NCBI GenBank assembly: GCA_944392795.1
Contig: CALXXX010000024.1
Span: 215-64,214, forward strand
Direction of reading: 5' to 3'
Length of the DNA stretch: 64,000 nucleotides
Source: an uncultured Alphaproteobacteria bacterium
GTDB lineage: Bacteria; Pseudomonadota; Alphaproteobacteria; CAAHEQ01; UBA3637
Numbering within the stretch: the first letter of the stretch is position 1; each line of letters begins with the position of its first letter. The notes below the pieces were generated by a model. It did no database searches. It saw only the letters and a program-made list of their open reading frames with translations, and was not told the DNA's origin. Shown in pieces: positions 12,695 through 57,270 of the stretch. Position numbers and translations under genes: made by a program.

Positions 12695-13122
12695 AGCTCC
12701 TCGATAAAACGACGAGCTAAAGCATCAACTCGTTCATTTTCCCGGTGTCCGTTATGTCCTTTAACCCAAACCCATTTCAAATGATGAGGAAGACTAAGTC
12801 TTAATAACTCTTGCCATAGTTCTAAGTTTGCTACAGGTTTCTTAGAAGCACTTTTCCAATTCTGAGCAACCCAAGTCGGAAGCCATTGAGTAAATCCTTT
12901 TAAAACATATGTACTATCTGTATAAATGGTCGCATCAACTGGCTCCTTTAACTGTCGAAGAGCTTCTATCACAGCCGTCAGTTCCATTTGATTGTTGGTT
13001 GTTTCTATTGCACCACCAGATATTTCTTTTTCTTTCCCCTTATAGCGCATTAAAACTCCCCATCCTCCCGGACCAGGATTTCCACTACATGCACCATCAG
13101 TGTAAATTTCAATTTTCTTCAT
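12670..13122 (-). CDS. rnhA: Ribonuclease HI
   Basis: IYTDGACSGNPGPGGWG, TTNNQMELTA, WVKGHNGHRENERVDALA. Confidence 0.97.
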   Translation of the reverse strand: MKKIEIYTDGACSGNPGPGGWGVLMRYKGKEKEISGGAIETTNNQMELTAVIEALRQLKEPVDATIYTDSTYVLKGFTQWLPTWVAQNWKSASKKPVANLELWQELLRLSLPHHLKWVWVKGHNGHRENERVDALARRFIEELQLRTELK

Positions 13123-13381
13123 TCCTTGAAGATGCCCGATTCTTTACCTATATTCAAGTATAAAGATAAAAAACTTTTTATTAGAGTATATTCTTTAAGA
13201 TATAATCTAAGATTTATCTTGTATTATCCAAAAAAATAGCAATATAAAAGGAAGATGAAGCAACAAAATTCCTATTCTTATTGGATGTTTTTTTAAAATG
13301 TATGCACTTTATTTTAAATTATTGTTGAAAAAAATATAAAAATACAAGTATAAACACTTTCAAGAAAAGAAATAACATAAG

Positions 13382-13750
13382 ATGATAAACAACATGACAA
13401 AAGAAAACTTTAGCAAAATATTGGGAAATCGCATTCGGGAGCTTAGGAAGATGAATGGGATGAGCCAATTGGATCTCGCCACGGAAATGGATGTAACACT
13501 GAATACTGTTTCCGGAATCGAGTGTGGGAAAACTTCTCCTAAAATTGAAACCTTGTGTCGAATGGCACTGGCTTTAGATATTCCGTTAGAGGATTTTTTC
13601 TCTTTTCCGGAACAATTTCCCCGTGATAAGAATGTTCGTCGGAAAGTAGAAAGCTTAGCACGTCAGTTGCTTCTATACGATGAGGATTTCATTGATTTAA
13701 TTATTGAAAATATTCATACAATGATGAAAATTAAAGGACCTAAAAAATAG
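13382..13750 (+). CDS. XRE-family helix-turn-helix regulator
   Basis: LGNRIRELRKMNGMSQLDLA...VSGIECGKTSP. Confidence 0.88.
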   Translation: MINNMTKENFSKILGNRIRELRKMNGMSQLDLATEMDVTLNTVSGIECGKTSPKIETLCRMALALDIPLEDFFSFPEQFPRDKNVRRKVESLARQLLLYDEDFIDLIIENIHTMMKIKGPKK

Positions 13751-13762
13751 GTCCTTTTTTTT
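13733..13762. terminator. Bidirectional terminator between convergent genes
   Basis: AAAGGACCT-N7-AGGTCCTTT plus T-run, overlapping the XRE stop codon. Confidence 0.65.
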
Positions 13763-13766
13763 CATT

Positions 13767-13952
13767 TTAAGCTACTTTTTTTGGCTTTATTTGAGCAGTT
13801 TGCATAGCTTTAGCTTCACTAAAGCAGACACGTTCGGCATATTCGCTTTGCTTTCCTTTATTAAAATGATTAACAGGTCTAAAATACCCCATCACACGTG
13901 TCCACACTTCGCAAGGTTGACGTTCTTCATCTTTTAAATGAACAGCACACAT
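13767..13952 (-). CDS. Stand-alone NrdD C-terminal glycyl-radical domain (61 aa)
   Basis: CEVWTRVMGYFRPVNHFNKGKQSEYAER matches the class III RNR C-terminal motif; SD AGGGAGG upstream. Confidence 0.8.
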   Translation of the reverse strand: MCAVHLKDEERQPCEVWTRVMGYFRPVNHFNKGKQSEYAERVCFSEAKAMQTAQIKPKKVA

Positions 13953-14132
13953 TTTTTCCTCCCTAAGATTTACTTCATTTTACAATATAACACAAAGAGT
14001 TAAAAAAAACGTTAATTTAAAAATCTTTAAAACTTTATAGTTATGTAGATAAGTATTGCTTTTCCTTCCTAAATGATATATATCTTTATTAACTTAGGTA
14101 ATAAAAATATTTTTATCATTAAGAGAAAAGAT

Positions 14133-15806
14133 ATGCCTGATAAAAAAAACACACTTCAAATTGGACGGAGTATGATTGAAATCATCGCTGTTTTAGCGAT
14201 TATTGGTATTTTAACTGCTCTTAGCCTAACTTTATATAGCTATTTAATCAACAAACACCGCGCTAATAACACAATTTATGATACTATGTTACGTGCTACT
14301 AATGTCCCAATGTATTATGAGACATATAAAGAGGCAAACGAAGGTACTCTTTTTAATTTCCCTGATCTAGGCCCAACGACACCAGACGCCTATCCAACTC
14401 AAGCCATTCGTGAACCCTTAACATCTCCCTACATTTTCCGAGTAGAAGTAAGTGCTATTCCTAATGAAGTTTGTCGACATGTGATTGATTTAAATCCAAC
14501 TGACATAGATCTTATCAAAATAAACTCAACAGAAAGGAGCAAACCAGACTCCACATCCGCAGATTGCTCGAAACAAAAATTAAATACCTTCTATTTTTAT
14601 TTCGAACCGACAACCCCCTCTTCGTCTGAAGAGGATGACGACCTTCAGGAAGGAGGCTGCACAGAAGATTCTTGTGAAAATTGTCATTTCTGTGATTCAG
14701 AAAGTGGGCAGTGCGTGCGTGAAGATTGCCCAATTCTAACCTGTCCAACAGGTTCTTATGCAACAGGCGTCGATGATTGCAACTGTATTATATCTTGTCA
14801 AGATTGCCCCGAGTTTACGCCATGTAATACTTGTTTTGATACTCTATATGACGCAAAAGGTTGTCCTACAGGTTGTACTCCCAGTACCTCTCATGAATGT
14901 TTATGTCCGGATGAACCTGTGTCTTGTAACCCTTTGTGCGAGACAGAAGGACAAGATAATAACGGCTGTCGAACATGTACTTCTTTATGTACAGAATCAT
15001 GCACAGTCTGTGGAGAAAATGGATGTGAAGCAAGTGATGCTCCAGAATGTCAGTGTCCGGAAGGATGTGATGCTTGTGAACAATGCGTCAACGGTGTATG
15101 TCAATTTATGTGTGGAGCAGAGGAAGTTTGCAATAGTGAAGGAACATGCGTACACTGTCCGTTAATTTTAAATGAAGGCAGAACTTGTCCTGATAATGGT
15201 CAGGGCGCTCTCTACATTACTTGGTGTCATAAAGAATCTTTAGGAGATAACAGCTGTGGTTGTTGCATATCTTGTCCTGGAGAAGGAGTAGCTTATGCTT
15301 TCAAACGAAATCCAGAGTCGCCAGAAGAGTGTTGTTTTGAGGAAGTTATTCAAAAATCAAATGGAGAATGGATGTGCTGCTCCTCAGATTCATCTCTTTA
15401 TAATATGAAATATGCATCTGGTCTCCGCTTTGACAGCAATAATAATCCTTATCTTGGAAGCCCAGCTCTTATTGATACTTTGTGTTGTAAAGCATCACCT
15501 CTTTGTCAATGGGGCTTGGATTACAAAGGAATAGAGATTTGTTATAGGCCTTATCAATGCTGCCCAGAAGGTTCAAAACCGCATATTATTTCGATGATTG
15601 ATAGAGGAGAACATGACATCGAATTTTTATCAGGATGCTGTGCTGGTACAGTGTCATTAAAATATTCTTGCGATTATACCGATTCTGATCCATCCAGTCC
15701 CTGTTATTATATTAGCGGCAATCATGCCGAGGCTTATACTTGTTCTACTGGGTGGATAGAAGATTGCTCAAATTGTACTTCCTCAGGCTATTATACGGTA
15801 GAATAG
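14133..15806 (+). CDS. Prepilin-like protein with a large Cys-rich C-terminal region
   Basis: QIG|RSMIEIIAVLAIIGIL prepilin-like leader (Glu+5), acidic linker, then about 58 Cys by hand count. Start set at MPDKK. Confidence 0.85.
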   Translation: MPDKKNTLQIGRSMIEIIAVLAIIGILTALSLTLYSYLINKHRANNTIYDTMLRATNVPMYYETYKEANEGTLFNFPDLGPTTPDAYPTQAIREPLTSPYIFRVEVSAIPNEVCRHVIDLNPTDIDLIKINSTERSKPDSTSADCSKQKLNTFYFYFEPTTPSSSEEDDDLQEGGCTEDSCENCHFCDSESGQCVREDCPILTCPTGSYATGVDDCNCIISCQDCPEFTPCNTCFDTLYDAKGCPTGCTPSTSHECLCPDEPVSCNPLCETEGQDNNGCRTCTSLCTESCTVCGENGCEASDAPECQCPEGCDACEQCVNGVCQFMCGAEEVCNSEGTCVHCPLILNEGRTCPDNGQGALYITWCHKESLGDNSCGCCISCPGEGVAYAFKRNPESPEECCFEEVIQKSNGEWMCCSSDSSLYNMKYASGLRFDSNNNPYLGSPALIDTLCCKASPLCQWGLDYKGIEICYRPYQCCPEGSKPHIISMIDRGEHDIEFLSGCCAGTVSLKYSCDYTDSDPSSPCYYISGNHAEAYTCSTGWIEDCSNCTSSGYYTVE

Positions 15807-16104
15807 TAGTGAACAATTATCAAAATGATGCTTTGAGGCTTTAAAGCCTCATAATAATTCTCTATGATATTTCGTTCAAATAGAGGGAATTCTGAGAAAA
15901 CTTTTTAAAATTTTAAAGAGTTATAAAATAGAGCTTTACTCAATAAGTCTGTTTTATTCCAGAACCTAAGGTTAAATAGAGTGTTTATTCTGAAAGAAAA
16001 CCACAGAGATAATTTGAATAAAACATAAAGAAATACATATGACTACATTATAAAAATTACATTTATAGAAAAAGTTTAAAAAGAAAATATTGGCATTGTT
16101 AATA

Positions 16105-16134
16105 AAAAACCCCTGTTAAAAAACAGGGGCTTTT
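16105..16134 (-). terminator. Terminator after ptsN
   Basis: CCCCTGTT/AACAGGGG hairpin with T-run on the minus strand. Confidence 0.7.
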
Positions 16135-16146
16135 CATAAATTTCAC

Positions 16147-16602
16147 CTATTCATCAGCATCTGCTGTTTGAATAATTTTCAAAGTTTCTTCTTTTGTTTT
16201 TGCGGAACGCAGCTGAGTACAAACATCTTCATTACGTAATAATTTAGAAATTCGTGCCAAAGCTTTTAAATGATCTGCGCCAGATTCTTCCGGCACCAAC
16301 AAGAAAAAGATTAAATCAACAGGTTTTCCATCAATTGCTTCGAAATCCAATGGCTTTGTACGCATAAAAGCACAAAATAAGTCCTTTAACCCAGGCAATC
16401 TTGCATGAGGAATTGCAACTCCCTTACCAATACCTGTTGTCCCCAAACGTTCTCGTTCGATTAAAGCATCAAAAACAGCTTGATGTTCACATCCAGTCAA
16501 AGGAGCAGACACTTCGGCGACTTCTTCAAGTGCTTGTTTCTTCGAAGCCGCATCAACATCTAAAAAGATGAGACTAGGCTTTAAAATATCCACAATTCTC
16601 AT
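16147..16602 (-). CDS. ptsN: PTS IIA nitrogen-regulatory protein
   Basis: LIERERLGTTGIGKGVAIPHAR (phospho-His), HLKALARISKLL. Confidence 0.93.
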   Translation of the reverse strand: MRIVDILKPSLIFLDVDAASKKQALEEVAEVSAPLTGCEHQAVFDALIERERLGTTGIGKGVAIPHARLPGLKDLFCAFMRTKPLDFEAIDGKPVDLIFFLLVPEESGADHLKALARISKLLRNEDVCTQLRSAKTKEETLKIIQTADADE

Positions 16603-16608
16603 GAGAAA

Positions 16609-17160
16609 TTAGCCTTTATTCTTAGGATCAACCCAACCGATATTACCATCTGAACGACGATATACCATATTCAATCCACCATGTGCTGAATTACGGAACA
16701 TCAACGCAGGCAAATCTGCTAAATCCATACGCATTACCGCACCACTGACAGAACAAATCGGTAACTCTGTTTGCATTTCTGCCACAATAACAGGAGCAGT
16801 TCCTTTAACTTCTTCTTCTTCCTCTGGTTCAATAACGGCAGCATCAACCATTTCAAACTTAATATTTTTATGTTCCGTCAAACGGTTTTTGTAACGCCGT
16901 AGTTGACGAGCGATACGATCACATGCCTGATCAAAAGCGACATATGCATCCGCTCCTTTAGCAGAACCTTTCAATAAAGCACCTGAACCAGGATGAACTG
17001 TGACTTCTGCTTTAATAGCATCGCCTTCGCGAGAAAAAACAACTGACGCATCAATTGCTGCATCAAAATACTTATCGACGACAGCAGACAAGTTTTTTTC
17101 TGCATAAGATTGCATGTTGTCGCCTAAATTCAATTGTTTTCCAGTAATTGTTATTTGCAT
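16609..17160 (-). CDS. hpf: Ribosome hibernation promoting factor (long HPF)
   Basis: MQITITGKQL, RQLRRYKNRL, C-terminal LNMVYRRSDGNIGWVDP; start moved to 17160. Confidence 0.93.
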   Translation of the reverse strand: MQITITGKQLNLGDNMQSYAEKNLSAVVDKYFDAAIDASVVFSREGDAIKAEVTVHPGSGALLKGSAKGADAYVAFDQACDRIARQLRRYKNRLTEHKNIKFEMVDAAVIEPEEEEEVKGTAPVIVAEMQTELPICSVSGAVMRMDLADLPALMFRNSAHGGLNMVYRRSDGNIGWVDPKNKG

Positions 17161-17251
17161 TTTTTTATCCTTAACTATAAACCATAGATTTATCAATCTA
17201 AAAGTCTTTCTCAGAAAAGTCAAGGCACTTCTTTAGCATACCTACAAATTC

Positions 17252-17923
17252 TTAACGGGAATAATGATTATGTTTTTGAAAATTTCTGATTTCTGTCCGC
17301 CGACGTTTTCGAAATTTCTCGTTAATTTGTCCGTAGAGCATCCAATCATCCGGTGAAAAATCATCCTCTTTAAATTGGACTTCCCAAATATTATGATTCA
17401 TGTGTATTACATGAGAGGTCCGAATAAGTGAAGCTTTAGTAGCACCTACATTTTTAGCCTCAACTCGGTACCATAGAACTTTTGAATCCATCATCGTATT
17501 TAAAATGCTTTCTAAGCCTTGATCCCCCAGTGGATTACCCGAAAGTGTTAATCGCCCTATTTTTTTAGATGATAAAACGGTAGCCAAAGCAGGGGCAGAA
17601 GCCGAAGTCATCTGACAATTTTCTAAGTCAATCGTCGTACAATGTGTATTATCCTTTAAACTTTCCGCCAATTTTAAAATGATCTCATCTGTCATTTTTT
17701 GCCCGGACCAATTTAATGTATCTAGCTCTGAATCGTTCTGCATAATTTGATTTAATTGATATTTCAGTTGTTCCGAAGAAAGTTTTATGACATTGTTTTC
17801 TAAATATCCTCTTTGCTTGTACTGTAGTCGCAATTTCTCATCTGCCGTTTCTTTAGCAATCAAGGCATGACGTTCTTCTTCTGTCATATCTGTCATATAT
17901 TGAAATTTTAAACGAGATGTCAT
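17252..17923 (-). CDS. Leucine-rich-repeat protein, ribonuclease-inhibitor-like class
   Basis: LDTLNWSGQKMTD, TTIDLENCQMTS, GRLTLSGNPLGDQG at about 28-aa spacing; SD AGGAGGT before ATG 17923. Confidence 0.8.
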   Translation of the reverse strand: MTSRLKFQYMTDMTEEERHALIAKETADEKLRLQYKQRGYLENNVIKLSSEQLKYQLNQIMQNDSELDTLNWSGQKMTDEIILKLAESLKDNTHCTTIDLENCQMTSASAPALATVLSSKKIGRLTLSGNPLGDQGLESILNTMMDSKVLWYRVEAKNVGATKASLIRTSHVIHMNHNIWEVQFKEDDFSPDDWMLYGQINEKFRKRRRTEIRNFQKHNHYSR

Positions 17924-17974
17924 AATATACCTCCTGCAAATAAAAATTATAGCAAAAAATAGACAAAAAATCAA

Positions 17975-18003
17975 TTGATTTTAAGAAAGAAATTGTTTAG
18001 ACT
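17975..18003 (+). promoter_or_regulatory. Candidate sigma70 promoter (leaderless hemW)
   Basis: TTGATT-N17-TAGACT, 6 nt before ATG 18010. Confidence 0.45.
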
Positions 18004-18009
18004 AAAAAA

Positions 18010-19062
18010 ATGGAAAAATTCGGTATTTATATTCATTGGCCTTTTTGTCTGTCTAAGTGTCCGTATTGCGATTTTTTCTCATTGCCAGCAGCCTCTTGGG
18101 ACGAGAAGACTTTAGAAAGTGCTTATATACGAGATTTAAAACGAATTCCTATTCGAACAGTAACAAGCTTATTCTTTGGTGGAGGAACTCCCTCTCTGAT
18201 GAGCCCGCGTTTGGTCCATCGCTTAATAACTGTGATCCGTGATAATTTCCCTGTTGCCTCAGAAATGGAAATATCCTTGGAAGCCAATCCGGATGCTATT
18301 GATAAACTTAAAATGGAAGCTTTTCATGCAGCTGGAATAAACCGACTCTCTTTAGGGATACAAGCTTTAAATCAAAAAGATTTAAAATTTCTAGGAAGAC
18401 GACATACTTTAGAAACAGCTTTACAACGCATTGAAGAAATGAAGTCTGTCTTTTATAATTTTTCTTTCGATCTCATATATGCTCGACCTGGACAAACTTT
18501 GCAAGCTTGGCAAAACGAGCTGGAAGAAGCTCTTTCATTTAATCCCCCTCATCTCTCTTTATATCAGTTAACAATTGAAGAAGAAACACCTTTTGCGCGT
18601 AAAAACATTGATCTTCCTGATGATGAAATAGCCAGATCGCTTTATGAATGGACTTTAGAAAGAATGGAAAAAGCTGATTGTCCTTTCTATGAAGTTTCTA
18701 ATTTTGCTCGTTCCGGTTTTGAATGCCGACATAACCTTTTATATTGGGAAGGAGATGACTATGCAGGCATTGGACCCGCTGCCCATGGTAGACTGGGATT
18801 AATTGCAACTGAGAACCCTAAGAACCTATCAAGTTGGTTAAAAGGAGAAACAATTACAACACTTTTATCCCCCTTTGAAAGACAAGAAGAAAAACTGATC
18901 ATGGGGCTTCGTCTCAAAAAAGGTATATCCGATAAAGGACTATCACCGATCAACATTCAAAAAGCGATCAAAAAGGGATGGTTAAAACAAGAAAAAGGAC
19001 GTATTTTTGCAACCCGTGAAGGTTTTATGATGCTCAATCAACTGATTCTGGAACTGGCATAA
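18010..19062 (+). CDS. hemW: Radical SAM heme chaperone HemW (HemN-like)
   Basis: IYIHWPFCLSKCPYCDF, FFGGGTPS, LEANP, HLSLYQLTIE, HNLLYW. Confidence 0.9.
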   Translation: MEKFGIYIHWPFCLSKCPYCDFFSLPAASWDEKTLESAYIRDLKRIPIRTVTSLFFGGGTPSLMSPRLVHRLITVIRDNFPVASEMEISLEANPDAIDKLKMEAFHAAGINRLSLGIQALNQKDLKFLGRRHTLETALQRIEEMKSVFYNFSFDLIYARPGQTLQAWQNELEEALSFNPPHLSLYQLTIEEETPFARKNIDLPDDEIARSLYEWTLERMEKADCPFYEVSNFARSGFECRHNLLYWEGDDYAGIGPAAHGRLGLIATENPKNLSSWLKGETITTLLSPFERQEEKLIMGLRLKKGISDKGLSPINIQKAIKKGWLKQEKGRIFATREGFMMLNQLILELA

Positions 19063-20476
19063 TATTTCCGACGGTCTGAAGAGCTTCTATTTCCTTGCGA
19101 GCACGTTCTTGAGCTATTCGTTGTTGTTCGCGATAAGCATTCAGTATTCGAATATCCGACATATGCTCTTTCATAAAGGCTTCTTCTTCAAAGGAAGATG
19201 CTGGTTTTTCCAAGACACGAAAATTATTTTTTCCAGCTATTTGAAAAACACCTAACAATCTTTCTGATGAGCCATCTTGACGCAGACGGAATAGACCATC
19301 TGTTCCCATAAATCCTCTGCTACTTGTCAGGCTTTCCTCGGACAGGCCCAAGGTTTGAGGCAAAACAGATGCAAGAGCGACAGCATCATATGCTAAAGAA
19401 GCCAATCGAACAGGTGTTCGACCATAAGTTTCTTTATATTTAGCAGAAAAAGCTTCAAATCCAGAAGAGGGAAGAGCTGCAAAGCGTCCACCCAATAAAG
19501 CTCCCTCATTTGTCAACGAAGGCTCATACCAAGTAGACATACCAAGAAACATAACATCTTTTGGTGTCACATCATAAAGGCCAAATAAAGAAGCAATAGA
19601 TTTTAAACGATTTCCATCATCAGCAATAAATAAGGCATCAAAATCTAATTGTTCGGCGATAGGAATTTCTGGCTCTAAATTTTCTTTCTCAGATTTCTTT
19701 TTATCTTTTTCCTTTTCATCTGCATATTTCTTTTTTGAAGCAAAAGAATCCGGTAAAACAGACAAAACATAAGGTTCAAAGTTGATAAAAGTCGGATTAT
19801 AAACAGCTAACTTTGTAATTTCTATTCCACAAGCGGCAGCAGCTTTTCGAGCTGTATCGATAGCAATATCTCCGGCTTTATTATCAGGTGCCATAATTGC
19901 TAATCGTGTCTTTTTTTGTTCGCAAGCATGCCGAATAATACGCTCTGTTTGTTGTGTCAACAACAAAGCCATCGTATAAACACCTTTTCCAACCGAGTCG
20001 GTATCTGAAGTAAAAGACACAACTGGAATATGATCAGCCATTTTACGAACAGCTTTAACTTCATCAGCATAAACAGGTCCTAACACAAGCTGAACATTAT
20101 CTTTCTCAGCTTTCTCAAAAGCTTCTTTTGCTCCTTCAGCTGTCCCTTTTGTATCATAAAACTGTAAGACTAAATTATCATTTGCCAACTCAAACTGAGC
20201 CAACATACCAGCATTACGCAGTTCTTCTCCTAACTGCTTTGATTTCCCTGTTAAAGGGAGCAACATTCCGACACGGACACTGACATTTTGTTTAGAAGAC
20301 TTAAGTAAGTCTTCATATTGAGGCGCGTCAATACTTCCTTCATAATATGGGATAATAGAAGCAGGAAGTTCTCCTAAAATGGGTTGTTCATACTTATCTC
20401 TTACCGCGCATGCTGCGGCAAAAAGCATACACCCCAAACAGGCTATTTTGGAAAAGAAAGTCCTTTTTTCTAACAT
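19034..20476 (-). CDS. Penicillin-binding protein activator (LpoA/LppC-like lipoprotein)
   Basis: Lipobox-like FAAAC, VGMLLPLTG, LVLGPVYA, ASLAYDAVAL, GTDGLFRL; divergent from rsmI. Confidence 0.82.
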   Translation of the reverse strand: MLEKRTFFSKIACLGCMLFAAACAVRDKYEQPILGELPASIIPYYEGSIDAPQYEDLLKSSKQNVSVRVGMLLPLTGKSKQLGEELRNAGMLAQFELANDNLVLQFYDTKGTAEGAKEAFEKAEKDNVQLVLGPVYADEVKAVRKMADHIPVVSFTSDTDSVGKGVYTMALLLTQQTERIIRHACEQKKTRLAIMAPDNKAGDIAIDTARKAAAACGIEITKLAVYNPTFINFEPYVLSVLPDSFASKKKYADEKEKDKKKSEKENLEPEIPIAEQLDFDALFIADDGNRLKSIASLFGLYDVTPKDVMFLGMSTWYEPSLTNEGALLGGRFAALPSSGFEAFSAKYKETYGRTPVRLASLAYDAVALASVLPQTLGLSEESLTSSRGFMGTDGLFRLRQDGSSERLLGVFQIAGKNNFRVLEKPASSFEEEAFMKEHMSDIRILNAYREQQRIAQERARKEIEALQTVGNIMPVPESVD

Positions 20477-20560
20477 GTTATCAAAAATATTTTTATTATT
20501 TATCTTCTTTTGGTATAATCGAAAATAATTAAAATTTCAACAAAAAAGAGGATTCTTTTC

Positions 20561-21394
20561 ATGACTGCGACCCTTTTTCTTGTCTCGACGCCTATCGGCA
20601 ACCTTGGCGATTTTTCGGACCGTGCAAGAGACGCTTTTCAAAAAGCAGATTTAATTGCTTGTGAAGATACGCGTCATACAAAAAAACTAATTGGACTTTT
20701 AGGAATTGAAACACACGCAGACTTTCTATCCTATCATGAGTATAACGCAGACAAAATGCGTCCTATTGTTATAGAAAAATTATCTGAAGGACTAGATATT
20801 GTTTTAGTTTCCGATGCAGGAACTCCTTTAATTTCAGATCCGGGATACAGACTTGTCAGAGATTGTTTAAAGACCGAAATAAAAGTTGTTCCAATCCCCG
20901 GAGCAAATGCGGTTCTACCTGCCTTACAATTATCTGGATTACCTTCCGATCGTTTTATGTTCGTTGGTTTTCTGGAAACAAAAACAACTGCTCGCCAAAA
21001 AGAACTTTCCGAATTTAAAACTGTTCCGGCTACTTTAATTTTTTATGAGTCGCCTCATCGTGTTTTGGAAACTTTGAAAGACATGTTCGCCGTTTTCGGA
21101 GACAGGTCTGCTGCTGTTGTTCGAGAGCTTACAAAACGTTTTGAAGAAAGTAAAATAGGCCTTCTATCCGAATTAATCGCTTTTTATGAGCAAAATGGAG
21201 AACCAAAAGGTGAAATTGTTATTTTAGTCGATAGACCCTCTGAAAAGACTCCTATCAATTTTGATATTCATGCAATGCTAACGCAAGCCATGAAAAATAA
21301 AACATTACGAGATGCTGTTGATGAAGTGACGACCATAACCGGATTAGACCGCCGTAAAATTTATAAAGAGGCTATTGAGATTAAAAATGGATAA
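20561..21394 (+). CDS. rsmI: 16S rRNA C1402 2'-O-methyltransferase
   Basis: VSTPIGNLGD, CEDTRHT, LVSDAGTPLISDPG, FYESPHR, RELTKRFEE. Confidence 0.97.
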   Translation: MTATLFLVSTPIGNLGDFSDRARDAFQKADLIACEDTRHTKKLIGLLGIETHADFLSYHEYNADKMRPIVIEKLSEGLDIVLVSDAGTPLISDPGYRLVRDCLKTEIKVVPIPGANAVLPALQLSGLPSDRFMFVGFLETKTTARQKELSEFKTVPATLIFYESPHRVLETLKDMFAVFGDRSAAVVRELTKRFEESKIGLLSELIAFYEQNGEPKGEIVILVDRPSEKTPINFDIHAMLTQAMKNKTLRDAVDEVTTITGLDRRKIYKEAIEIKNG

Positions 21395-48127: not shown

Positions 48128-49385
48128 TTTTCTTATTTCACGCAAATCCGCTCTTTCTATTCTAGAACAAACGGCCCGAAAAGGGAAAAGTCTCGAGGAT
48201 GTTTTCGAAAAAGAAACGCAAGGTCTTGATAGTCGAGATAAAGCTTTTATTCGTATGCTAACGTCGACAACTTTTCGCCGTTTGGGACAGATAGATGATT
48301 TATTATCAACTTTGCTCAAAAAACCACTTCCTGCTCGAGCTCAAAAAGCGCAAGATATTTTAAGGCTCGGCATCACACAACTCTTATTCATGGAAACGCC
48401 GGCACACGCTGCCGTATCCACTTCTGTGGAATTGGCTCGTCAAACGGGAGAAGATTTTTATGTTCCCCTTATCAATGCATTACTCAGAGAATTAACGCGC
48501 CGCGGAGACAGCCTTCTAAGAATGCAAGATGCCGCTTTACTCAATACACCTTCTTTTATCTGGGACAGTTGGGTAAAAGCTTATGGGCAAGACAAAGCTC
48601 GCGCCATGGCAGAAGCCAACATGACAGAACCGTCCGTTGATATTTCTGTCAAGGAAAATCCAGCCTATTGGGCAAAGCAATTAAATGGAGAATTATTACC
48701 AACCGGCTCTGTTCGTCTTGCTCCTAATAGTTACATTCCGGAACTTCCCGGTTTCCAAGAAGGAGCCTGGTGGGTTCAAGACGCAGCCGCCGCTTTAGCT
48801 GTCCGGTTAATGGGAGATGTTAAAGGGCTTAAAACAGCAGATTTATGTTCAGCTCCGGGGGGGAAAACAGCCGGTCTTCTTAATGCTGGAGCCATCGTTG
48901 ACGCTTATGATATTTCCGCAAAGCGCCTTCAACGAGTCGAGGAAAATCTCAGACGACTTCATTTATCCGCAAGTTTAATTGCAAAAAATGCTAATGAAAT
49001 AGAAGGCAAAGAAATTTACGATAAAATTTTAATCGATGCCCCTTGTTCTGCAACAGGCACATTACGGAGACATCCGGATATTATCGTTCATCGAACAGCT
49101 CAGGATATTGAACGCTTACAAAACGCGCAAGAAAACTTGTTAAAAACAGCGCATCGTCTGGTGAAAAAAAACGGAACTGTTGTCTATTGCACTTGCTCAT
49201 TACAAAAAGAAGAAGGGGAAGACATAATTGATAAGTGTGCTTTCTTATTTGATAGAGTTCCCATCACCGATTCGCTCTTGCATCCCCATTTAACAATCCA
49301 CGGAGACATCCGAACCTTTCCAATGGACGGAACAGATGGCTTTTTTATGGCTAAATTAAGAAAAAAAGGAGACAAATATGCCTAA
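48120..49385 (+). CDS. rsmB: RsmB/Sun-family rRNA m5C methyltransferase
   Basis: NusB-like N-terminus, [30 protein letters not shown]. Confidence 0.88.
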
Positions 49386-49959
49386 AACAATTGCTTTTTT
49401 ATTCTCAGGTAAGATCGAAAGTCCGACAAATTTAGCTCTTTTAACTGGAATGGATGCCTTAGATAAGTCTCAATATACCCCTATCGCATTTGTCGAAGAC
49501 ATGAATGGAAGCTTTACAAAAAAGCTACAAAAGCAAAAACTCAAGCTTGTTCCTTTTCAGCTAAAATGTCCGGTTGATCCAAAAGCTTCTCGCCTTAAAG
49601 GAGCTTGGCAAACATTCCGTAATTCTTTGATGGTTTTAATGTTGGTAAAACATTATCAAATTGATTTCGTTGTTTCGGCAGAAATGGGATTAATTTTAGC
49701 TTTCTCTCCCGGAGTTTACGCTGCTCATAAAAAAATCATTTGGATGCAAGAATCTTTATGGGAAGATTATCCCATCGCAGAACTCTGGTCAGGATATATG
49801 GGAGGTTTATTTGTCAGTTCAGAAAAAGTATTAAAATCGCTTCCCCCTTCTTTGCAGTATCATGCAAAAATTTTAGAACCTCCGTCCTTTGAAACAGCGC
49901 TCAAAAAGAAAGAAATTGCAAAAAATTATATAGAAACGCTTTTAAAAGATTGCAATTAA
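49378..49959 (+). CDS. Hypothetical protein resembling a lone GT-B N-terminal domain
   Basis: Rossmann-like pattern (IAFLFSG...IDFVVS...KIIWMQE...LFVSSE); ends at 193 aa with no donor-binding domain. Confidence 0.5.
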   Translation: MPKTIAFLFSGKIESPTNLALLTGMDALDKSQYTPIAFVEDMNGSFTKKLQKQKLKLVPFQLKCPVDPKASRLKGAWQTFRNSLMVLMLVKHYQIDFVVSAEMGLILAFSPGVYAAHKKIIWMQESLWEDYPIAELWSGYMGGLFVSSEKVLKSLPPSLQYHAKILEPPSFETALKKKEIAKNYIETLLKDCN

Positions 49960-50534: not shown

Positions 50535-51599
50535 ATGAAAGATTTAGTGGGCTTGTCCCGCGAAGCGCTTCTGACCGAAGTCACAGCTTTAGGTGAGAAG
50601 CCTTTTCGCGTTAAGCAATTGTGGCAATGGATTTATAACAAAGGCGTAACTGATTTTACGCAGATGACAAATATTGCCAAACCTTTACAAAAACGATTAG
50701 CGGAAAATTATTTTATTTCAAGACCTCAAATCGTCACAGAAAAAAACTCAACGGATAAAACACGCAAATGGCTTTTCCGCTTCGCAGACGGAAAAGAAGT
50801 CGAAACCGTTTATATTCCAGAAGAAGATCGTGGAGCAGTTTGTCTATCCACCCAAGTGGGCTGTCAAATGGGATGCCGCTTCTGTCACACAGGGACACAA
50901 GGCTTTACGCGCAATTTAACTGCCGGCGAAATCGTCGGCCAATTTATGGCCGCGCGAGACAGTTATGGTGAATGGCCCTCCCCCACAGATGAAACGCGTT
51001 TTTTATCAAATGTTGTCGTCATGGGCATGGGTGAACCGCTTATGAATTACGATAATTTAGTAACGGCGATGCGAATCTTAATGGACGGAGAAGGAATTGC
51101 TTTATCTAAACGTCGAATAACCGTTTCAACCTCCGGTATTGCTGATAAAATTCCGAACTTAGCAACGGATTTGGGGGTAAAACTAGCTGTCAGCTTACAT
51201 GCTCCGACTGATGATATCCGAAATCAAATTATGCCTATTAACCGACGTTTTCCTTTAAAGGATTTAATGGAAGCTTGTAAAGAATACCAACAAAAATTAG
51301 AGCATCGTCAATATATTACAATGGAATACGTTATGTTGAAAGATGTTAACGACTCGATTGAGCAAGCTCATCAATTGATTGATTTGGTTAAGGGATTGGA
51401 AGTAAAATTTAATCTGATTCCTTTTAATCCCTGGGACGGTTGTCCTTACGAATCTTCTTCTAACAATGCCATCCGCCGCTTTCAAAAAGTTTTAGAAGAT
51501 GCTTGGTTCCCTGCGCCGATTCGCGTTTCCAGAGGCCAAGACATTATGGCCGCCTGTGGTCAACTTAAATCCGTTTTCCACAAAGAACAAAAGAAATAA
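50535..51599 (+). CDS. rlmN: 23S rRNA m2A2503 methyltransferase
   Basis: CLSTQVGCQMGCRFC, VMGMGEPL, SLHAP, DIMAACGQL. Confidence 0.97.
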   Translation: MKDLVGLSREALLTEVTALGEKPFRVKQLWQWIYNKGVTDFTQMTNIAKPLQKRLAENYFISRPQIVTEKNSTDKTRKWLFRFADGKEVETVYIPEEDRGAVCLSTQVGCQMGCRFCHTGTQGFTRNLTAGEIVGQFMAARDSYGEWPSPTDETRFLSNVVVMGMGEPLMNYDNLVTAMRILMDGEGIALSKRRITVSTSGIADKIPNLATDLGVKLAVSLHAPTDDIRNQIMPINRRFPLKDLMEACKEYQQKLEHRQYITMEYVMLKDVNDSIEQAHQLIDLVKGLEVKFNLIPFNPWDGCPYESSSNNAIRRFQKVLEDAWFPAPIRVSRGQDIMAACGQLKSVFHKEQKK

Positions 51600-51779: not shown

Positions 51780-52184
51780 ATGAAAAATACTCAACAAGGT
51801 CGTTCTATGATTGAAATGCTCGGCGTTTTAGCCATTATCGGTGTTTTGTCCATCGGTGGCTTGGCTGGTTACACAATGGCGATGAACCGCCACAGAGCAA
51901 ACCAAATTTTGGACTATGTCTCTCGTGCTGTTGTTATTGCTCAAACAAAGGGCGATGGTGCACAATCCATCGATGATACTTGCCAAAACATTTTGGATGG
52001 TGAAGCAGTTCCTGTCTCTGGCATGACTTGCGAAGTAGATCGTACAGCTGGTATCGATCAAAATACAACAGTCACAGTTGGTGGTGTTAATGAACGTATT
52101 GCTGCTGCTTTAGCAAACCGCTCCGGCAACCAAGTAACAATTACATCCACTTCAAATGGTGCTAATTTCACATTCATGAATTAA
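51780..52184 (+). CDS. Type IV pilin-like protein, copy 1
   Basis: QQG|RSMIEMLGVLAIIGVLSIGGLAGY; 134 aa; one Cys pair. Confidence 0.88.
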   Translation: MKNTQQGRSMIEMLGVLAIIGVLSIGGLAGYTMAMNRHRANQILDYVSRAVVIAQTKGDGAQSIDDTCQNILDGEAVPVSGMTCEVDRTAGIDQNTTVTVGGVNERIAAALANRSGNQVTITSTSNGANFTFMN

Positions 52185-52206
52185 TTTTCTGAAAGGATTT
52201 TTAAAA

Positions 52207-52614
52207 ATGAAGAATACTCAACAAGGTCGTTCTATGATTGAAATGCTCGGCGTTTTAGCCATTATCGGTGTTTTGTCCATCGGTGGCTTAGCCGGTTACA
52301 CAATGGCCATGAACCGTCACAGAGCAAATCAAATCTTGGACTATGTCTCTCGTGCTGTTGTGATCGCTCAAACAAAGGGTGATGGAACACAGGAAATTTC
52401 GAATGAAAATTGCTCTACCATTTTAGATGGTGAAGATGTTCCAGTCTCCGGCATGGGATGTACAGTGAACAAAACAGCTGGCTATGCAAATATCACTGTT
52501 TCTGTAACAAATGTTAACAGCCGTATTGCAGCTGCTTTACAAAATCGTTCCGGTAACCAAGTAACGATTACATCTACTTCAAACAGTGCTGCTTTCACTT
52601 TTGCAAGTTCATAG
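52207..52614 (+). CDS. Type IV pilin-like protein, copy 2
   Basis: First 60 aa identical to copy 1; diverged C-terminal half; same AAAGGATTTTTAAA leader. Confidence 0.88.
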   Translation: MKNTQQGRSMIEMLGVLAIIGVLSIGGLAGYTMAMNRHRANQILDYVSRAVVIAQTKGDGTQEISNENCSTILDGEDVPVSGMGCTVNKTAGYANITVSVTNVNSRIAAALQNRSGNQVTITSTSNSAAFTFASS

Positions 52615-52630
52615 TTTGCAAAATGAGGAA

Positions 52631-52661
52631 AAAACGCTCCGAGGTATCGGAGCGTTTTTTT
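52631..52661 (+). terminator. Strong terminator after the pilin pair
   Basis: AAAACGCTCCGA-GGTA-TCGGAGCGTTTT plus T-run. Confidence 0.88.
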
Positions 52662-52683
52662 ATATCTTTTTATGAACGAAATA

Positions 52684-52712
52684 TTGACGCTTTTCTTCAT
52701 TTTTCCTATGAT
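52684..52712 (+). promoter_or_regulatory. Candidate sigma70 promoter of the GT41 gene
   Basis: TTGACG-N17-TATGAT. Confidence 0.65.
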
Positions 52713-52732
52713 AAAAAGAAAAAAGGAAAATA

Positions 52733-54298
52733 ATGAACACAGCTTTAGATCTTCTTAACAAAGGCGTTGAATACGCACAAAATAAAAATTACACTCAAGC
52801 GGAAAAATGTTTCCGTCAATCCCTAGAACTGGATCCGAATAATCCTGTTACTATTCGAAACCTTGGCAACGCTTGCGCAGCAGATGGCCGAATGACGGAA
52901 GGGCTTGTCTATCTGACACAATACTTGGATATGAGACCTGACGACTTAGAAACCATGGGACATGTCCTTTACTTAAAGTATAATTACTGCATTTGGAATG
53001 GATTAGAAAGAATGCAGGAACGCCTTAAAAAAGGATTACAAGAACATACTCTGCAATCCGAACCTAAACTTTTATTTTTGGGAATGACTTTCGAAGAACG
53101 CTATCACTATATGACGAAGCTAGCCGCAGAGAACAAAAAACTTTCTCTTTTGCGCAAAGAAAAACCTTTCTCATTACCAACTTATCAACACGACAAGTTA
53201 AAAGTCGGTTTTTTCACAACAGATATAGGACCTTCTCCTTGTGGTTTTGTCATTGCCAGTTTATGGGAAAACTTATCTCACGATGATTTTGAATGGCATT
53301 GTTTTTCTTGCCGAAAACTTTCCGATAAGCCTGAAGATGCTCCCTTAATAAAGCGGCACAAGGCGGCTTTTGATTTTTTCCATGACGTCTCGAATATAAA
53401 AGACTTCCGCATGATGGCTGATACCATAGCAAAAGAAGAAATTGATATTTTAATTGATGTCAATATGCTTATCAATTCAATGTATCCGGCTTTATATTAC
53501 AAGCCTGCACCGATTATCGTAAATTATTTAGGCTATCCTTCGACAACAGGCTTGCCTTGGTATGATTATATGATTGCAGATGCTTGGACCGTTCCTTCAG
53601 AAAAAGAACGTTGGTTTACAGAAAAAATTATTCGTATGCCTCATTGTTATCATTGTGTTGACACAAACCCTGAAACTTATCCAGGGCTTGCACCTAAATC
53701 GATTCTAGGACTTCCAGAAAAAGGAACTATTTTTGCCTGTTTAAATTCTCCGTTTAAAATTACACCTCACTATTGGGATATGTGGATGCGAATTTTAAAG
53801 GCTGTTCCTGACAGTATCCTTTGGTTACGTTCTTTTAATTTTGAAACTGATGAGAAATTTAAAGAAGAAGCTAAAAAACGCAATATTAATCCCAACAGAA
53901 TTATTGTCTTGCCGAAAATGCCAACTCATGCAGACTTTCTGTATTGCTTCAAAAATGCTGATTTATTTCTGGACACAGAAATGTACAACGCACATTCAAC
54001 TGCTTTAGAGAGTCTTTTCTGTGGTGTCCCCCTTATTACTTGTCCAGGAGACTCTTATGCCTCACGCGTTTCATCCAGTATGCTGCATGCCTTCGGATTA
54101 GATGAGATGATTTGCAAGACAGAAGAAGAATATGAAAAAAAAGCAATTGAACTTGGTCTTAATACAGAAAAGCTCAATTGTCTTAAAGCAAAAACCGTTG
54201 CGTTAATGACACAAAATAATCCACTGTTTGATATGAAATCTTATGCACGAGATTTTGAGAAGCTTTTACGACAAATTTCATCTAAAAAGAATTCTTAA
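52733..54298 (+). CDS. TPR-containing GT41 (OGT/SPINDLY-like) glycosyltransferase
   Basis: About two N-terminal TPRs; PAPIIVNYLGYPSTTG, FACLNSPFKIT, DLFLDT..YNAHST, PGDSYASRVSSSML. Confidence 0.9.
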   Translation: MNTALDLLNKGVEYAQNKNYTQAEKCFRQSLELDPNNPVTIRNLGNACAADGRMTEGLVYLTQYLDMRPDDLETMGHVLYLKYNYCIWNGLERMQERLKKGLQEHTLQSEPKLLFLGMTFEERYHYMTKLAAENKKLSLLRKEKPFSLPTYQHDKLKVGFFTTDIGPSPCGFVIASLWENLSHDDFEWHCFSCRKLSDKPEDAPLIKRHKAAFDFFHDVSNIKDFRMMADTIAKEEIDILIDVNMLINSMYPALYYKPAPIIVNYLGYPSTTGLPWYDYMIADAWTVPSEKERWFTEKIIRMPHCYHCVDTNPETYPGLAPKSILGLPEKGTIFACLNSPFKITPHYWDMWMRILKAVPDSILWLRSFNFETDEKFKEEAKKRNINPNRIIVLPKMPTHADFLYCFKNADLFLDTEMYNAHSTALESLFCGVPLITCPGDSYASRVSSSMLHAFGLDEMICKTEEEYEKKAIELGLNTEKLNCLKAKTVALMTQNNPLFDMKSYARDFEKLLRQISSKKNS

Positions 54299-54302
54299 AA
54301 GG

Positions 54303-57270
<2,968 letters not shown>

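What the first reader, a model, noticed from the sequence alone, without database searches (positions are those of the whole stretch)
51780..54298. Sequon-rich pilins next to a TPR-GT41 enzyme: candidate cytoplasmic pilin glycosylation module
Seen: pilin 1 has three N-x-S/T sequons (NTT, NRS, NFT) and pilin 2 has four (NCS, NKT, NIT, NRS), mostly in variable blocks, plus Ser/Thr-rich tails; the GT41 gene follows 118 nt later. Established: GT41 includes OGT/SPINDLY (O-linked) and HMW1C-type enzymes that glycosylate adhesin sequons in the cytoplasm. Inference: variation may re-pattern glycans. Caveat: a terminator and separate promoter uncouple the transcripts.
Basis: partly seen in the sequence, partly recalled or inferred. 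Interest (0 to 1): 0.65.

Follow-up and report, generated by a model that had tools for sequence, protein, structure and literature searches.

The report
Pilin genes beside an OGT-like glycosyltransferase
Two near-identical pilus-subunit genes sit next to a cytoplasmic sugar-adding enzyme of the OGT type; relatives' genomes link this enzyme lineage to pilin-like genes, much like a pilin-glycosylating system already shown in cyanobacteria, but the N-linked "sequon" idea is not supported.

Summary
The genes are real: two tandem 134/135-aa type IV pilin-like genes (82% identical), then a terminator, a promoter-like site and a 521-aa TPR+GT41 gene 118 nt downstream.

All seven N-x-S/T sequons are present. 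They are no more frequent than composition-matched shuffles give (P about 0.2). Only the NRS at residue 113 recurs across the pilin family. The orthologous pilin in a GT41-bearing relative has no sequon.

The enzyme aligns end to end with Xanthomonas XcOGT (E 5.5e-66), not with HMW1C/NGT. Any modification is therefore more likely O-linked on Ser/Thr.

The proposed pilin-GT41 link is supported by comparison. In the 80-genome family, 13 genomes carry 14 GT41 genes. The 12 put in a tree form one clade. Eleven of the 14 lie next to a pilin-like gene, seven of them 8-27 nt downstream of a large modular pilin gene. None of 78 outgroup GT41 loci has a pilin within 4 kb.

In the window's sub-clade the link is looser: own promoter, inverted or pilin-less in some relatives. 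A conserved active-site His is replaced by Ser.

Synechococcus Ogt-PilA is a published precedent, so this is a new member of a known kind.

The parts
51780..52184 (+). Small type IV pilin-like gene 1 (134 aa). The leader is MKNTQQG, followed by RSMIEM with Glu at +5.
   Evidence: ORF. Borderline prepilin-domain hits (over the TIGR02532 cut-off, under the PF07963 cut-off). The AF2 model built with a 90-sequence alignment has pLDDT 78.9, with a helix at 5-56, four strands and a helix at 105-112. The best Foldseek hit is C. difficile PilW (probability 0.92, E 0.045).
52207..52614 (+). Small type IV pilin-like gene 2 (135 aa), 82% identical to gene 1 and identical over residues 1-60.
52628..52661 (+). 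Intrinsic-terminator-like hairpin (15 bp stem, 6 G-C pairs) followed by a T-run, after pilin 2.
   Evidence: The locus of a 57%-identical GT41 (L190) has an equivalent hairpin upstream of its GT41.
52684..52712 (+). Sigma-70-like promoter (TTGACG-17-TATGAT, 10 of 12 matches) 21 nt upstream of the GT41 start codon.
   Evidence: L190 has TTGACA-17-TATGAT at the same place.
52733..54298 (+). TPR + GT41 (OGT/XcOGT-like) glycosyltransferase, 521 aa. It has no signal peptide and is the only GT41 in the genome.
   Evidence: PF13844 at 5.6e-66. XcOGT 2JLB at 5.5e-66 over residues 16-516. Single copy. Under purifying selection against G002: dN 0.10 with dS saturated.
52751..52951 (+). Short N-terminal TPR region (residues 7-73, about two repeats).
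   Evidence: TPR_1, TPR_2, TPR_8 and TPR_9 hits.
53234..53236 (+). Codon for Ser168, at the position of XcOGT His218 and human OGT His558. The surrounding GPSPCG motif is a signature of the window's sub-clade.
   Evidence: Alignments. Residue equivalence from PMC3040809.
53756..53758 (+). Codon for Lys342, equivalent to the phosphate-binding XcOGT Lys388 and human OGT Lys842. It is conserved.
   Evidence: PMC3040809. The 13-bp deletion in the G001 copy (own 53739-53751) ends two codons before it, taking out codons 337-339 and part of codons 336 and 340, and shifts the frame across this codon.

Best explanation
The 521-aa protein is a soluble, cytoplasmic OGT-type (GT41) protein glycosyltransferase. 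It belongs to a lineage that, in this family of small-genome gut Alphaproteobacteria, is dedicated to proteins carrying the family's type IVb pilin 'handle'.

In this genome its most likely substrates are the two adjacent small pilins, which are candidate major subunits of the type IVb pilus encoded on contig C40.

Proposed mechanism (inferred):
- The short TPR region docks the pre-pilin.
- The GT-B domain transfers a monosaccharide from a nucleotide sugar to Ser/Thr hydroxyls, not to Asn.
- This happens before or during membrane insertion.
- The pilin is then cleaved by the prepilin peptidase and assembled.

The Ser/Thr-rich C-terminal beta-hairpin (TITSTSN) is the best candidate acceptor.

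The donor is unknown and may not be UDP-GlcNAc. Tyr418 sits where human OGT has Cys917, and the canonical His is Ser.

Shown here: gene anatomy, family membership, lineage-wide gene linkage, purifying selection. Inferred: catalysis, substrate, acceptor site, donor, and where in the cell it acts.
For: Linkage across the family:
- The family has 80 species genomes. GT41 occurs in 13 of them, as 14 genes.
- The 12 placed in a tree form one clade apart from 89 other GT41s (SH-aLRT 94).
- Eleven of the 14 lie next to a pilin-like gene.
- Seven of nine in sub-clade B lie directly downstream of a large modular pilin gene on the same strand, with gaps of 8-27 nt or overlapping. Their wider genomic contexts differ.
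- Pilin-like genes make up only about 1-5% of genes in these genomes.
- None of 78 outgroup GT41 loci has a pilin within 4 kb.

Support for real glycan chemistry:
- One clade member is fused to a GT8 domain and another to a pyruvyl-transferase domain.

The window's own sub-clade:
- The layout of pilin, pilin, GT41 holds in all three genomes of the genus. A 43-44% identical orthologue also lies beside a small pilin.
- The GT41 is under purifying selection (dN 0.10, dS saturated).
- Lys342, His421, Thr423 and Glu426 are kept at nucleotide-binding positions.

Other candidate routes and substrates look absent:
- No flagellin gene.
- No Wzy_C/PglL-type transferase above the cut-off.

A pilus system is present:
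- A prepilin peptidase and a cluster of secretin, PilO, ATPase, platform and pilin.

Precedent (PMC9306852):
- S. elongatus Ogt is cytoplasmic, and its conserved Lys445 is required.
- It is needed for PilA glycosylation and lies beside tandem pilA genes.
- ogt and pilin genes are adjacent in 77 of 201 cyanobacterial genomes.
Against: The link is loose in the window's own sub-clade:
- A strong terminator and a separate promoter lie between pilin 2 and the GT41.
- The GT41 is inverted relative to the pilin in the sister genus.
- G012 and the P0004/P0005 loci have the GT41 but no adjacent pilin.
- The same rlmN-atpC gap holds small pilins without any GT41 in at least five genomes.
- A 99%-identical copy in G001 carries a 13-bp frameshifting deletion.

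The active site departs from canonical OGT:
- His558 equivalent is Ser.
- Gln839/Asn385 equivalent is Ser.
- Tyr841 equivalent is Phe.

Topology is a problem. The pilin globular domain is periplasmic once inserted, and type IV pilins are generally thought to insert co-translationally.

Most family genomes (67 of 80) have many pilins and no GT41.

There is no biochemical evidence for this organism.
Confidence: 0.45

Rival explanations
1. The GT41 glycosylates other proteins, cytoplasmic or exported, as a general or regulatory O-glycosyltransferase. Its position next to the pilins is a relic of an ancestral pilin-linked operon, or a by-product of the rlmN-atpC gap being an insertion hot spot.
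For: - It has its own promoter and sits behind a terminator.
- Its orientation differs between genera.
- GT41 occurs without a pilin in G012 and at the P0004 locus, and pilins occur without GT41 at the same site in genus g14 and in G035.
- Sub-clade A sits on a long stem branch (0.9 changes per column) and has a changed active site.
- Bacterial GT41 enzymes with many cytoplasmic targets exist, for example Yersinia HmwC (abstract of PMC11329713, seen).
Against: - Sub-clades A and B together form one family-specific clade whose members are overwhelmingly pilin-linked.
- Adjacency is kept in all three genomes of the genus and in G023/P0009.
- In the few cases available, pilins that lie next to a sub-clade A GT41 have a Ser/Thr-rich last hairpin. 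Small pilins of G035, of genus g14 and of G012 do not. This is a weak pattern.
Confidence: 0.25
2. The protein has lost or greatly changed catalysis. It acts mainly as a TPR/GT-fold chaperone or scaffold for pre-pilins, or as a regulator, rather than as a transferase.
For: - Ser replaces the His whose mutation inactivates human OGT (the His218/His558 equivalence and the loss of activity are from PMC3040809).
- The Asn385/Gln839 and Tyr387/Tyr841 equivalents are also changed.
- An earlier scan note reports conserved 'dead' GT41 modules next to pilin genes in another lineage (not verified here).
Against: - The substitutions form a strictly conserved signature (GPSPCG in 11 of 12 sub-clade A sequences) and are not scattered decay.
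- The phosphate-binding Lys and the NAH(S/T)T and E/D nucleotide-binding motifs are kept.
- Purifying selection acts on the gene.
- That His is no longer regarded as the catalytic base in GT41 enzymes (PMC9715652).
Confidence: 0.12
3. HMW1C/NGT-type cytoplasmic N-glycosylation of the N-x-S/T sequons in the pilins.
For: - Seven sequons are present.
- HMW1C-type enzymes belong to GT41 (PMC3012730).
- There is a weak local hit to the NGT model (6.1e-05).
Against: - The NGT model scores 21.8 bits against a cut-off of 1000.
- No HMW1C structure appears among the 47 PDB sequence hits, while XcOGT aligns over the full length.
- The protein has TPRs.
- Sequon counts match composition-matched shuffles.
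- G023's GT41-adjacent pilin has no sequon.
- In 90 family pilins only N113-R-S recurs (42%), and 14 have no sequon at all. The same N-R-S motif is also found in the small pilins of genus g14, whose genomes lack GT41.
Confidence: 0.04
4. The enzyme acts on a non-protein acceptor, such as a polysaccharide or lipid-linked glycan.
For: - One clade member is fused to a polysaccharide pyruvyl-transferase domain, and one neighbours GT2 and GT-C-like genes.
- No protein substrate has been shown.
Against: - All characterised GT41 enzymes act on proteins (PMC9715652, PMC3012730, PMC9306852).
- TPR domains are protein-binding modules.
- The tight pilin-to-GT41 two-gene units in seven genomes argue for a protein target.
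Confidence: 0.08

Closest known systems
Cyanobacterial Ogt/OgtA-PilA system (Synechococcus elongatus PCC 7942 Synpcc7942_0051 beside pilA 0048/0049; Nostoc punctiforme OgtA). Source: PMC9306852.
   Same: - A soluble TPR+GT41 enzyme with no secretion signal, encoded beside tandem pilin genes.
- The phosphate-binding Lys is conserved.
- ogt-pilin adjacency recurs across a lineage: 77 of 201 cyanobacterial genomes there, 11 of 14 GT41 genes in this family here.
   Different: - Different phylum.
- The pilins here belong to a type IVb-like system (PilO, secretin, ATPase and platform cluster) with 11-70 pilin-handle genes per genome, many of them large and modular.
- Only about two TPRs.
- The window's enzyme has Ser in place of the conserved active-site His.
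- No experiment has been done here.
Xanthomonas campestris XcOGT (PDB 2JLB, 2VSY)
   Same: It is the best sequence match of the whole protein (E 5.5e-66, residues 16-516 against 70-560). It has the same layout of short TPR region plus bipartite GT-B domain. Tyr sits at the position of human Cys917.
   Different: - XcOGT keeps His218, Asn385 and Tyr387. The window's enzyme has Ser168, Ser339 and Phe341.
- XcOGT's native substrate is unknown. I did not examine its genomic context.
FlmG flagellin glycosyltransferase of Caulobacter (PMC7591256)
   Same: - The logic is the same: a soluble enzyme with an N-terminal TPR domain that binds the filament subunit and a C-terminal GT-B domain.
- It O-glycosylates the subunit in the cytoplasm before export.
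   Different: - Its substrate is flagellin, exported by the flagellar type III system, and its donor is pseudaminic acid.
- This genome has no flagellin gene.
- The paper does not describe FlmG as a GT41.
HMW1C / ApNGT N-glycosyltransferases (PMC3012730)
   Same: - CAZy family GT41.
- Cytoplasmic glycosylation of a protein that is exported afterwards.
   Different: - They are N-linked at sequons and use UDP-glucose or UDP-galactose.
- The window's enzyme fails the NCBIfam NGT model and is OGT-like.
- The window's enzyme has TPRs.
Periplasmic pilin O-oligosaccharyltransferases (PilO/TfpO, PglL) and TfpW
   Same: They modify type IV pilins and are often encoded next to the pilin gene (as cited in PMC9306852).
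   Different: - They are membrane enzymes that use lipid-linked glycans in the periplasm.
- They are unrelated in fold.
- This genome has no Wzy_C-type protein above the cut-off.

Membership tests
GT41 (Pfam PF13844, Glyco_transf_41) | Match to the family model above its curated cut-off. | tested here: met
   223.4 bits against a cut-off of 25, E 5.6e-66, in two stretches. The whole-genome search gives the same single gene.
OGT/XcOGT-type GT41 | N-terminal TPRs followed by a bipartite GT-B catalytic region that aligns with a solved OGT over its full length. | tested here: met
   TPR hits at residues 7-73. 2JLB aligns residues 16-516 to 70-560 at E 5.5e-66, and human OGT at about 1e-59.
OGT/XcOGT-type GT41 | Phosphate- and nucleotide-binding residues: human Lys842 / XcOGT Lys388, the His-Thr-Thr motif, and Asp471. 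| tested here: met
   Lys342, His421, Ser422-Thr423 and Glu426 align to XcOGT Lys388, His466, Thr467-Thr468 and Asp471 (PMC3040809).
OGT/XcOGT-type GT41 | Conserved active-site His (human His558 / XcOGT His218 / SPY His495) and Gln839/Asn385. | tested here: not met
   Ser168 and Ser339 occupy these positions. GPSPCG is conserved in 11 of 12 sub-clade A sequences. Sub-clade B and three of the four outgroup sequences aligned keep the His (HP(T/V/L)); the fourth has Gln there.
O-GlcNAc transferase in the strict sense (UDP-GlcNAc donor) | A small residue (human Cys917) that leaves room for the N-acetyl group; demonstrated GlcNAc transfer. | tested here: not met
   Tyr418 aligns with XcOGT Tyr463 and SPY Tyr744. 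PMC9715652 argues that this residue drives donor choice. Activity cannot be tested here.
HMW1C/NGT N-glycosyltransferase | Match to the NCBIfam equivalog NF049992, with an all-alpha N-terminal domain in place of TPRs. | tested here: not met
   21.8 bits against a cut-off of 1000, over residues 211-304 only. No HMW1C chain appears among the PDB hits. TPRs are present.
HMW1C/NGT N-glycosyltransferase | Acceptor sequons N-x-S/T that are enriched or conserved in the substrate. | tested here: not met
   Shuffle tests give P = 0.19-0.23. The G023 orthologue has none. Only N113-R-S recurs, in 42% of 90 pilins.
Type IV pilin (class III signal peptide proteins) | Short positively charged leader ending in Gly, Glu at +5, and a hydrophobic alpha-1 helix. 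| tested here: met
   The N-terminus reads MKNTQQG, then RSMIEMLGVLAIIGVLS. TIGR02532 scores 16.7 and 16.5 against a cut-off of 16.3. PF07963 scores 18 and 17.1, below its 21.2 cut-off. The match is borderline on the models but clear by motif.
Type IV pilin (class III signal peptide proteins) | Pilin fold: a long N-terminal helix packed on an antiparallel sheet. | tested here: inconclusive
   The AF2 model has pLDDT 78.9, with a helix at 5-56 and four strands. The best Foldseek PDB match is the C. difficile pilin PilW, but only at E 0.045, probability 0.92 and TM 0.44.
Type IV pilin (class III signal peptide proteins) | A prepilin peptidase and assembly machinery encoded in the same genome. 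| tested here: met
   Peptidase_A24 on C15. Secretin, PilO (PF06864), T2SSE, T2SSF and a pilin gene on C40.
Ogt-PilA pilin glycosylation module (cyanobacterial type) | A soluble TPR+GT41 gene next to pilin gene(s), with the adjacency recurring across relatives. | tested here: met
   The gap in the window is 118 nt. Eleven of 14 family GT41 genes are pilin-adjacent, against 0 of 78 outgroup loci.
Ogt-PilA pilin glycosylation module (cyanobacterial type) | The pilin carries a glycan that depends on the enzyme. | not testable with these tools
   This needs mass spectrometry or lectin blots of pilin with and without the GT41.
FlmG-type flagellin glycosyltransferase | A flagellin substrate present in the genome. 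| tested here: not met
   There is no PF00669 match in a 99.4%-complete genome, while the control genomes do match.

The most novel reading that the evidence does not exclude
A family-specific clade of OGT-like enzymes is hard-wired to the 'pilin-handle' surface proteins of abundant, uncultured small-genome gut Alphaproteobacteria.

- The enzymes O-glycosylate small major pilins and large Cys- and Ser-rich modular pilin adhesins in the cytoplasm. This would be a route reported so far only in cyanobacteria.
- The pilin-GT41 two-gene cassette moves between genomic sites. In three genomes (G020, G034 and G109) it lies beside a serine invertase that may switch it on and off.
- The window's sub-clade, with its conserved His-to-Ser active site, would use a donor other than UDP-GlcNAc.
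Probability: 0.3. Interest if true: 0.6.

Novelty: new member of a known kind. Interest (0 to 1): 0.42.

Why it matters
If the enzyme does glycosylate these pilins, cytoplasmic GT41-type pilin glycosylation would extend from cyanobacteria to a common but uncultured group of human and animal gut bacteria. These bacteria devote 1-5% of a 1-2 Mb genome to pilin-handle proteins.

It would also sharpen an open question: how a soluble cytoplasmic enzyme can modify a domain that ends up outside the cell on a protein thought to insert co-translationally.

The sub-clade B two-gene units (pilin followed by GT41) offer compact enzyme-substrate pairs for reconstitution.

The window's sub-clade offers a natural active-site variant (His to Ser, Asn/Gln to Ser, Tyr to Phe) for studying how GT41 enzymes choose their donor.

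For annotation, the practical lesson is that N-x-S/T counts in Asn/Ser/Thr-rich pilins of low-GC genomes carry no information on their own.

Tried and rejected
1. Sequon enrichment. Rejected by composition-matched shuffles and by lack of conservation.

2. HMW1C/NGT membership. Rejected.

3. Flagellin as an alternative substrate. No flagellin gene.

4. A conventional PglL/PilO-type route. Only an 18-bit Wzy_C hit in a frame with two stops.

5. A general GT41-pilin linkage among the nearest non-family GT41s. None of 78 loci has a pilin within 4 kb. The linkage is therefore lineage-specific among those sampled. Other lineages described in earlier scan notes were not re-examined.

6. A correlation between GT41 presence and a Ser/Thr-rich last hairpin in the small pilins. 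It holds for the genus g1 and G023 against G035 and genus g14. G012 has the GT41 but a Ser/Thr-poor, non-adjacent pilin, which fits 'adjacent pilin is the substrate'. The sample is too small to count.

7. Single-sequence AF2 of pilin 1 was useless (pLDDT 43). It was redone with 90 homologues.

8. Foldseek against the PDB gave only a weak pilin match.

9. Metagenome contigs for more sub-clade A contexts were mostly too short, or they break at the repeated pilin 5' ends.

10. dN/dS could only be bounded, because dS is saturated between the two species compared.
Full report
**What is there**

The window is contig C24 of a 1.29-Mb, 37% G+C, 99.4%-complete genome. Earlier notes, and the record title of a relative (L057, a human-gut MAG), place it among uncultured gut Alphaproteobacteria.

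Between rlmN (50535-51599) and the convergent atpC (54303-54761) lie three genes on the + strand:
- 51780-52184, 134 aa.
- 52207-52614, 135 aa.
- 52733-54298, 521 aa.

The two small proteins are 82% identical, and residues 1-60 are identical. Both start MKNTQQG, then RSMIEMLGVLAIIGVLS. This is a class III (prepilin) signal with Gly at -1 and Glu at +5. They score just over the TIGR02532 cut-off and just under the PF07963 cut-off.

With a 90-sequence alignment, AlphaFold gives a pilin-like model at pLDDT 78.9: a helix at 5-56, four strands and a short helix. The best PDB fold match is the C. difficile pilin PilW, but it is weak (E 0.045).

The genome encodes the parts needed to process and assemble pilins:
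- A prepilin peptidase on C15.
- On C40, a cluster of secretin, PilO-type accessory protein, T2SSE ATPase and T2SSF platform, followed by a pilin gene.

About 25-30 genes carry the same N-terminal 'handle'. Many sit at contig ends.

The 521-aa protein has about two TPRs (residues 7-73) and a GT41 domain (PF13844, 5.6e-66). It has no hydrophobic N-terminus and is the only GT41 in the genome.

A 15-bp-stem terminator (52628-52661) and a 10-of-12 promoter match (52684-52712) separate it from pilin 2. A 57%-identical homologue on a metagenome contig has the same two elements upstream.

**The sequons**

Their density is in the top 1% of this genome's long ORFs. However, shuffling each pilin's own residues gives 3 or more sequons in 23% of trials for pilin 1, and 4 or more in 19% for pilin 2.

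Conservation is poor:
- Paralogue C34a has none in its globular part.
- The small pilin next to the orthologous GT41 in G023 has none at all.
- In 90 family pilins the mean is 1.7 and 14 have none.
- The only recurrent site is N113-R-S (42%). It lies in a conserved block that is also present in the small pilins of genus g14, whose genomes lack GT41.

The sequons are therefore a by-product of composition.

**What kind of GT41**

The protein aligns with Xanthomonas XcOGT over residues 16-516 (E 5.5e-66). It also matches human and Drosophila OGT, Thermobaculum OGT and plant SPINDLY. No HMW1C structure is among the 47 hits. The NCBIfam N-glycosyltransferase model gives 21.8 bits against a cut-off of 1000. 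It is an OGT/SPINDLY-type enzyme, for which Ser/Thr O-linkage is expected.

I mapped residues through XcOGT, using the equivalences given in PMC3040809:

| Window residue | XcOGT | Human OGT | Status |
|---|---|---|---|
| Lys342 | Lys388 | Lys842 | kept |
| His421, Thr423, Glu426 | His466, Thr468, Asp471 | not mapped | kept |
| Ser168 | His218 | His558 | changed |
| Ser339 | Asn385 | Gln839 | changed |
| Phe341 | Tyr387 | Tyr841 | changed |

These changes form a conserved signature. GPSPCG is found in 11 of 12 sequences of the window's sub-clade, which span 42-98% identity. The sister sub-clade and most outgroups keep HP(T/V) and NNxYK.

Tyr418 occupies the position (human Cys917, SPY Tyr744) that PMC9715652 proposes as the determinant of donor size. 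UDP-GlcNAc is therefore not a safe assumption.

Against G002, dN is 0.10 while dS is saturated, so the gene is under purifying selection. A 99%-identical copy in G001 has a 13-bp deletion between short direct repeats. It ends two codons before the Lys342 codon and shifts the frame.

**Is the adjacency meaningful?**

The reference set holds 80 species genomes of this family. Thirteen of them carry GT41, as 14 genes. All 17 family genomes I sampled carry 11-70 pilin-handle genes.

Twelve of the 14 were placed in a tree of 101 GT41s. G001 and G109 were left out. The 12 form one clade (SH-aLRT 94) made of two sub-clades, each with 100% support.

Sub-clade B has 9 genes:
- Seven lie immediately downstream of a large (271-897 aa) pilin-handle gene on the same strand. 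The genomes are G047, G013, G020, G019, G034, G022 and G109.
- The gaps are 8-27 nt, or the genes overlap. Their wider genomic contexts differ.
- With pilin genes at 1-5% of genes, about 0.3 such cases are expected by chance. The cases are not fully independent, but the pilin C-terminal modules and the flanking genes differ between them.
- Several of these pilins carry Cys-rich repeats or poly-Ser linkers.
- Two members are fused to further glycan enzymes: GT8-TPR-GT41 in G047, and GT41 with a pyruvyl transferase in G013.

Sub-clade A has 5 genomes plus metagenome proteins P0001-P0009. It always sits in the rlmN-atpC gap:
- All three genomes of the genus have pilin, pilin, GT41.
- G023 and P0009 have the GT41 inverted and convergent with one small pilin.
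- G012 and the P0004/P0005 contigs show no pilin next to the GT41.
- The same gap is empty in G007.
- It holds small pilins without GT41 in G035 and in genus g14.

None of the 78 outgroup GT41 loci I fetched has a pilin motif within 4 kb.

The lineage as a whole is pilin-linked, and most tightly in sub-clade B. The window's sub-clade keeps a looser version of that link.

**Other routes and substrates**

There is no flagellin gene. There is no Wzy_C/PglL-type oligosaccharyltransferase above the cut-off.

**Comparison with what is known**

Suban et al. (PMC9306852) studied Ogt of Synechococcus elongatus, a TPR+GT41 protein with no secretion signal that is encoded beside pilA 0048/0049:
- It is required for PilA glycosylation, detected by succinyl-WGA lectin staining, which recognises GlcNAc.
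- It is required for normal piliation.
- Its conserved Lys445 is needed.
- ogt and pilin genes are adjacent in 77 of 201 cyanobacterial genomes.

The same paper cites Nostoc OgtA as required for PilA accumulation.

FlmG of Caulobacter shows the same logic for flagellin: its TPR domain binds the subunit and its GT-B domain modifies it in the cytoplasm (PMC7591256).

The window is best read as a new member of this known kind, in another phylum and with type IVb-like pilins.

Earlier notes of this scan already describe pilin-linked GT41 genes in Betaproteobacteria and in a gut alphaproteobacterium. I treated these as leads only. The alphaproteobacterial note matches what I found independently in G020.

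**Verdict**

- Observation: real, apart from 'sequon-rich' as a signal.
- Interpretation: the functional link between pilins and the GT41 is plausible and has comparative support. The N-linked sequon mechanism is not supported.
- For this particular enzyme I put about 45% on pilin O-glycosylation.
- The main rivals are another protein target (25%) and a scaffold role with altered catalysis (12%).
- Nothing biochemical has been shown for this organism.

Noticed in passing
L047:8872-9495, L049:12619-13221, L169:9139-9732 (relatives G020, G034, G109): A serine recombinase (Resolvase domain, with an HTH domain in two of the three) lies divergently, about 150-250 nt upstream of the pilin-GT41 operon in three genomes. 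It could be an invertible-promoter or cassette switch. I did not look for inverted repeats.
   Followed up: partly
L055:5891-8356 (G047) and L046:7780-10317 (G013): Two GT41 fusion proteins occur in the same clade: GT8-TPR-GT41 (821 aa) and GT41 with a polysaccharide pyruvyl transferase domain (845 aa). They suggest that the first sugar is extended or modified.
   Followed up: partly
L017:2535-2553 (G001), equivalent to window 53739-53751: A 13-bp deletion flanked by GTTTAAA repeats frameshifts the GT41 of a 99%-identical relative, ending two codons before the codon of the phosphate-binding Lys. It could be a population variant, a recent pseudogene or an assembly artefact.
   Followed up: partly
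window 49378-49959: A 193-aa ORF lies between rsmB and ialB. It is conserved in G002 but absent at this site in genus g11. It has no Pfam hit and only a weak PssD/Cps14F-type glycosyltransferase hit (E 0.024).
   Followed up: no
Contig ends of the window's genome, e.g. C9:1-284, C19:1-173, C20:1-274, C24:1-223, C28:1-233, C35:1-226, C37 both ends, C40:20436-20675: Many contigs end inside the conserved 5' part of pilin-handle genes. This repeat family is what fragments the assembly, so pilin copy number and neighbourhoods are under-counted.
   Followed up: partly
L192:5576-6220 and L193:4032-4708 (metagenome contigs with P0004): Downstream of a sub-clade A GT41, where other relatives have a pilin, there is a non-coding stretch that appears to hold tandem DNA repeats. 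I saw this only as repeated peptide motifs in a translated frame.
   Followed up: no
L169:6626-8905 (G109) and L049:9962-12466, L050:6385-9078: The large pilin-handle proteins next to GT41 are built of repeated Cys-containing modules. Examples are 'YYDSDEEAIAAMC' repeats, and 'CSTGATA...LC' modules joined by runs of 6-8 Ser. The poly-Ser linkers look like natural O-glycosylation targets.
   Followed up: no
G000 contig C40:7709-10985 and 11166-20675 (L168): The type IVb pilus cluster (secretin, PilO, ATPase, platform, pilin) lies directly beside three ORFs that I judged VirB4-, VirB3- and VirB2-like by size and N-terminal sequence only, without a family search.
   Followed up: no
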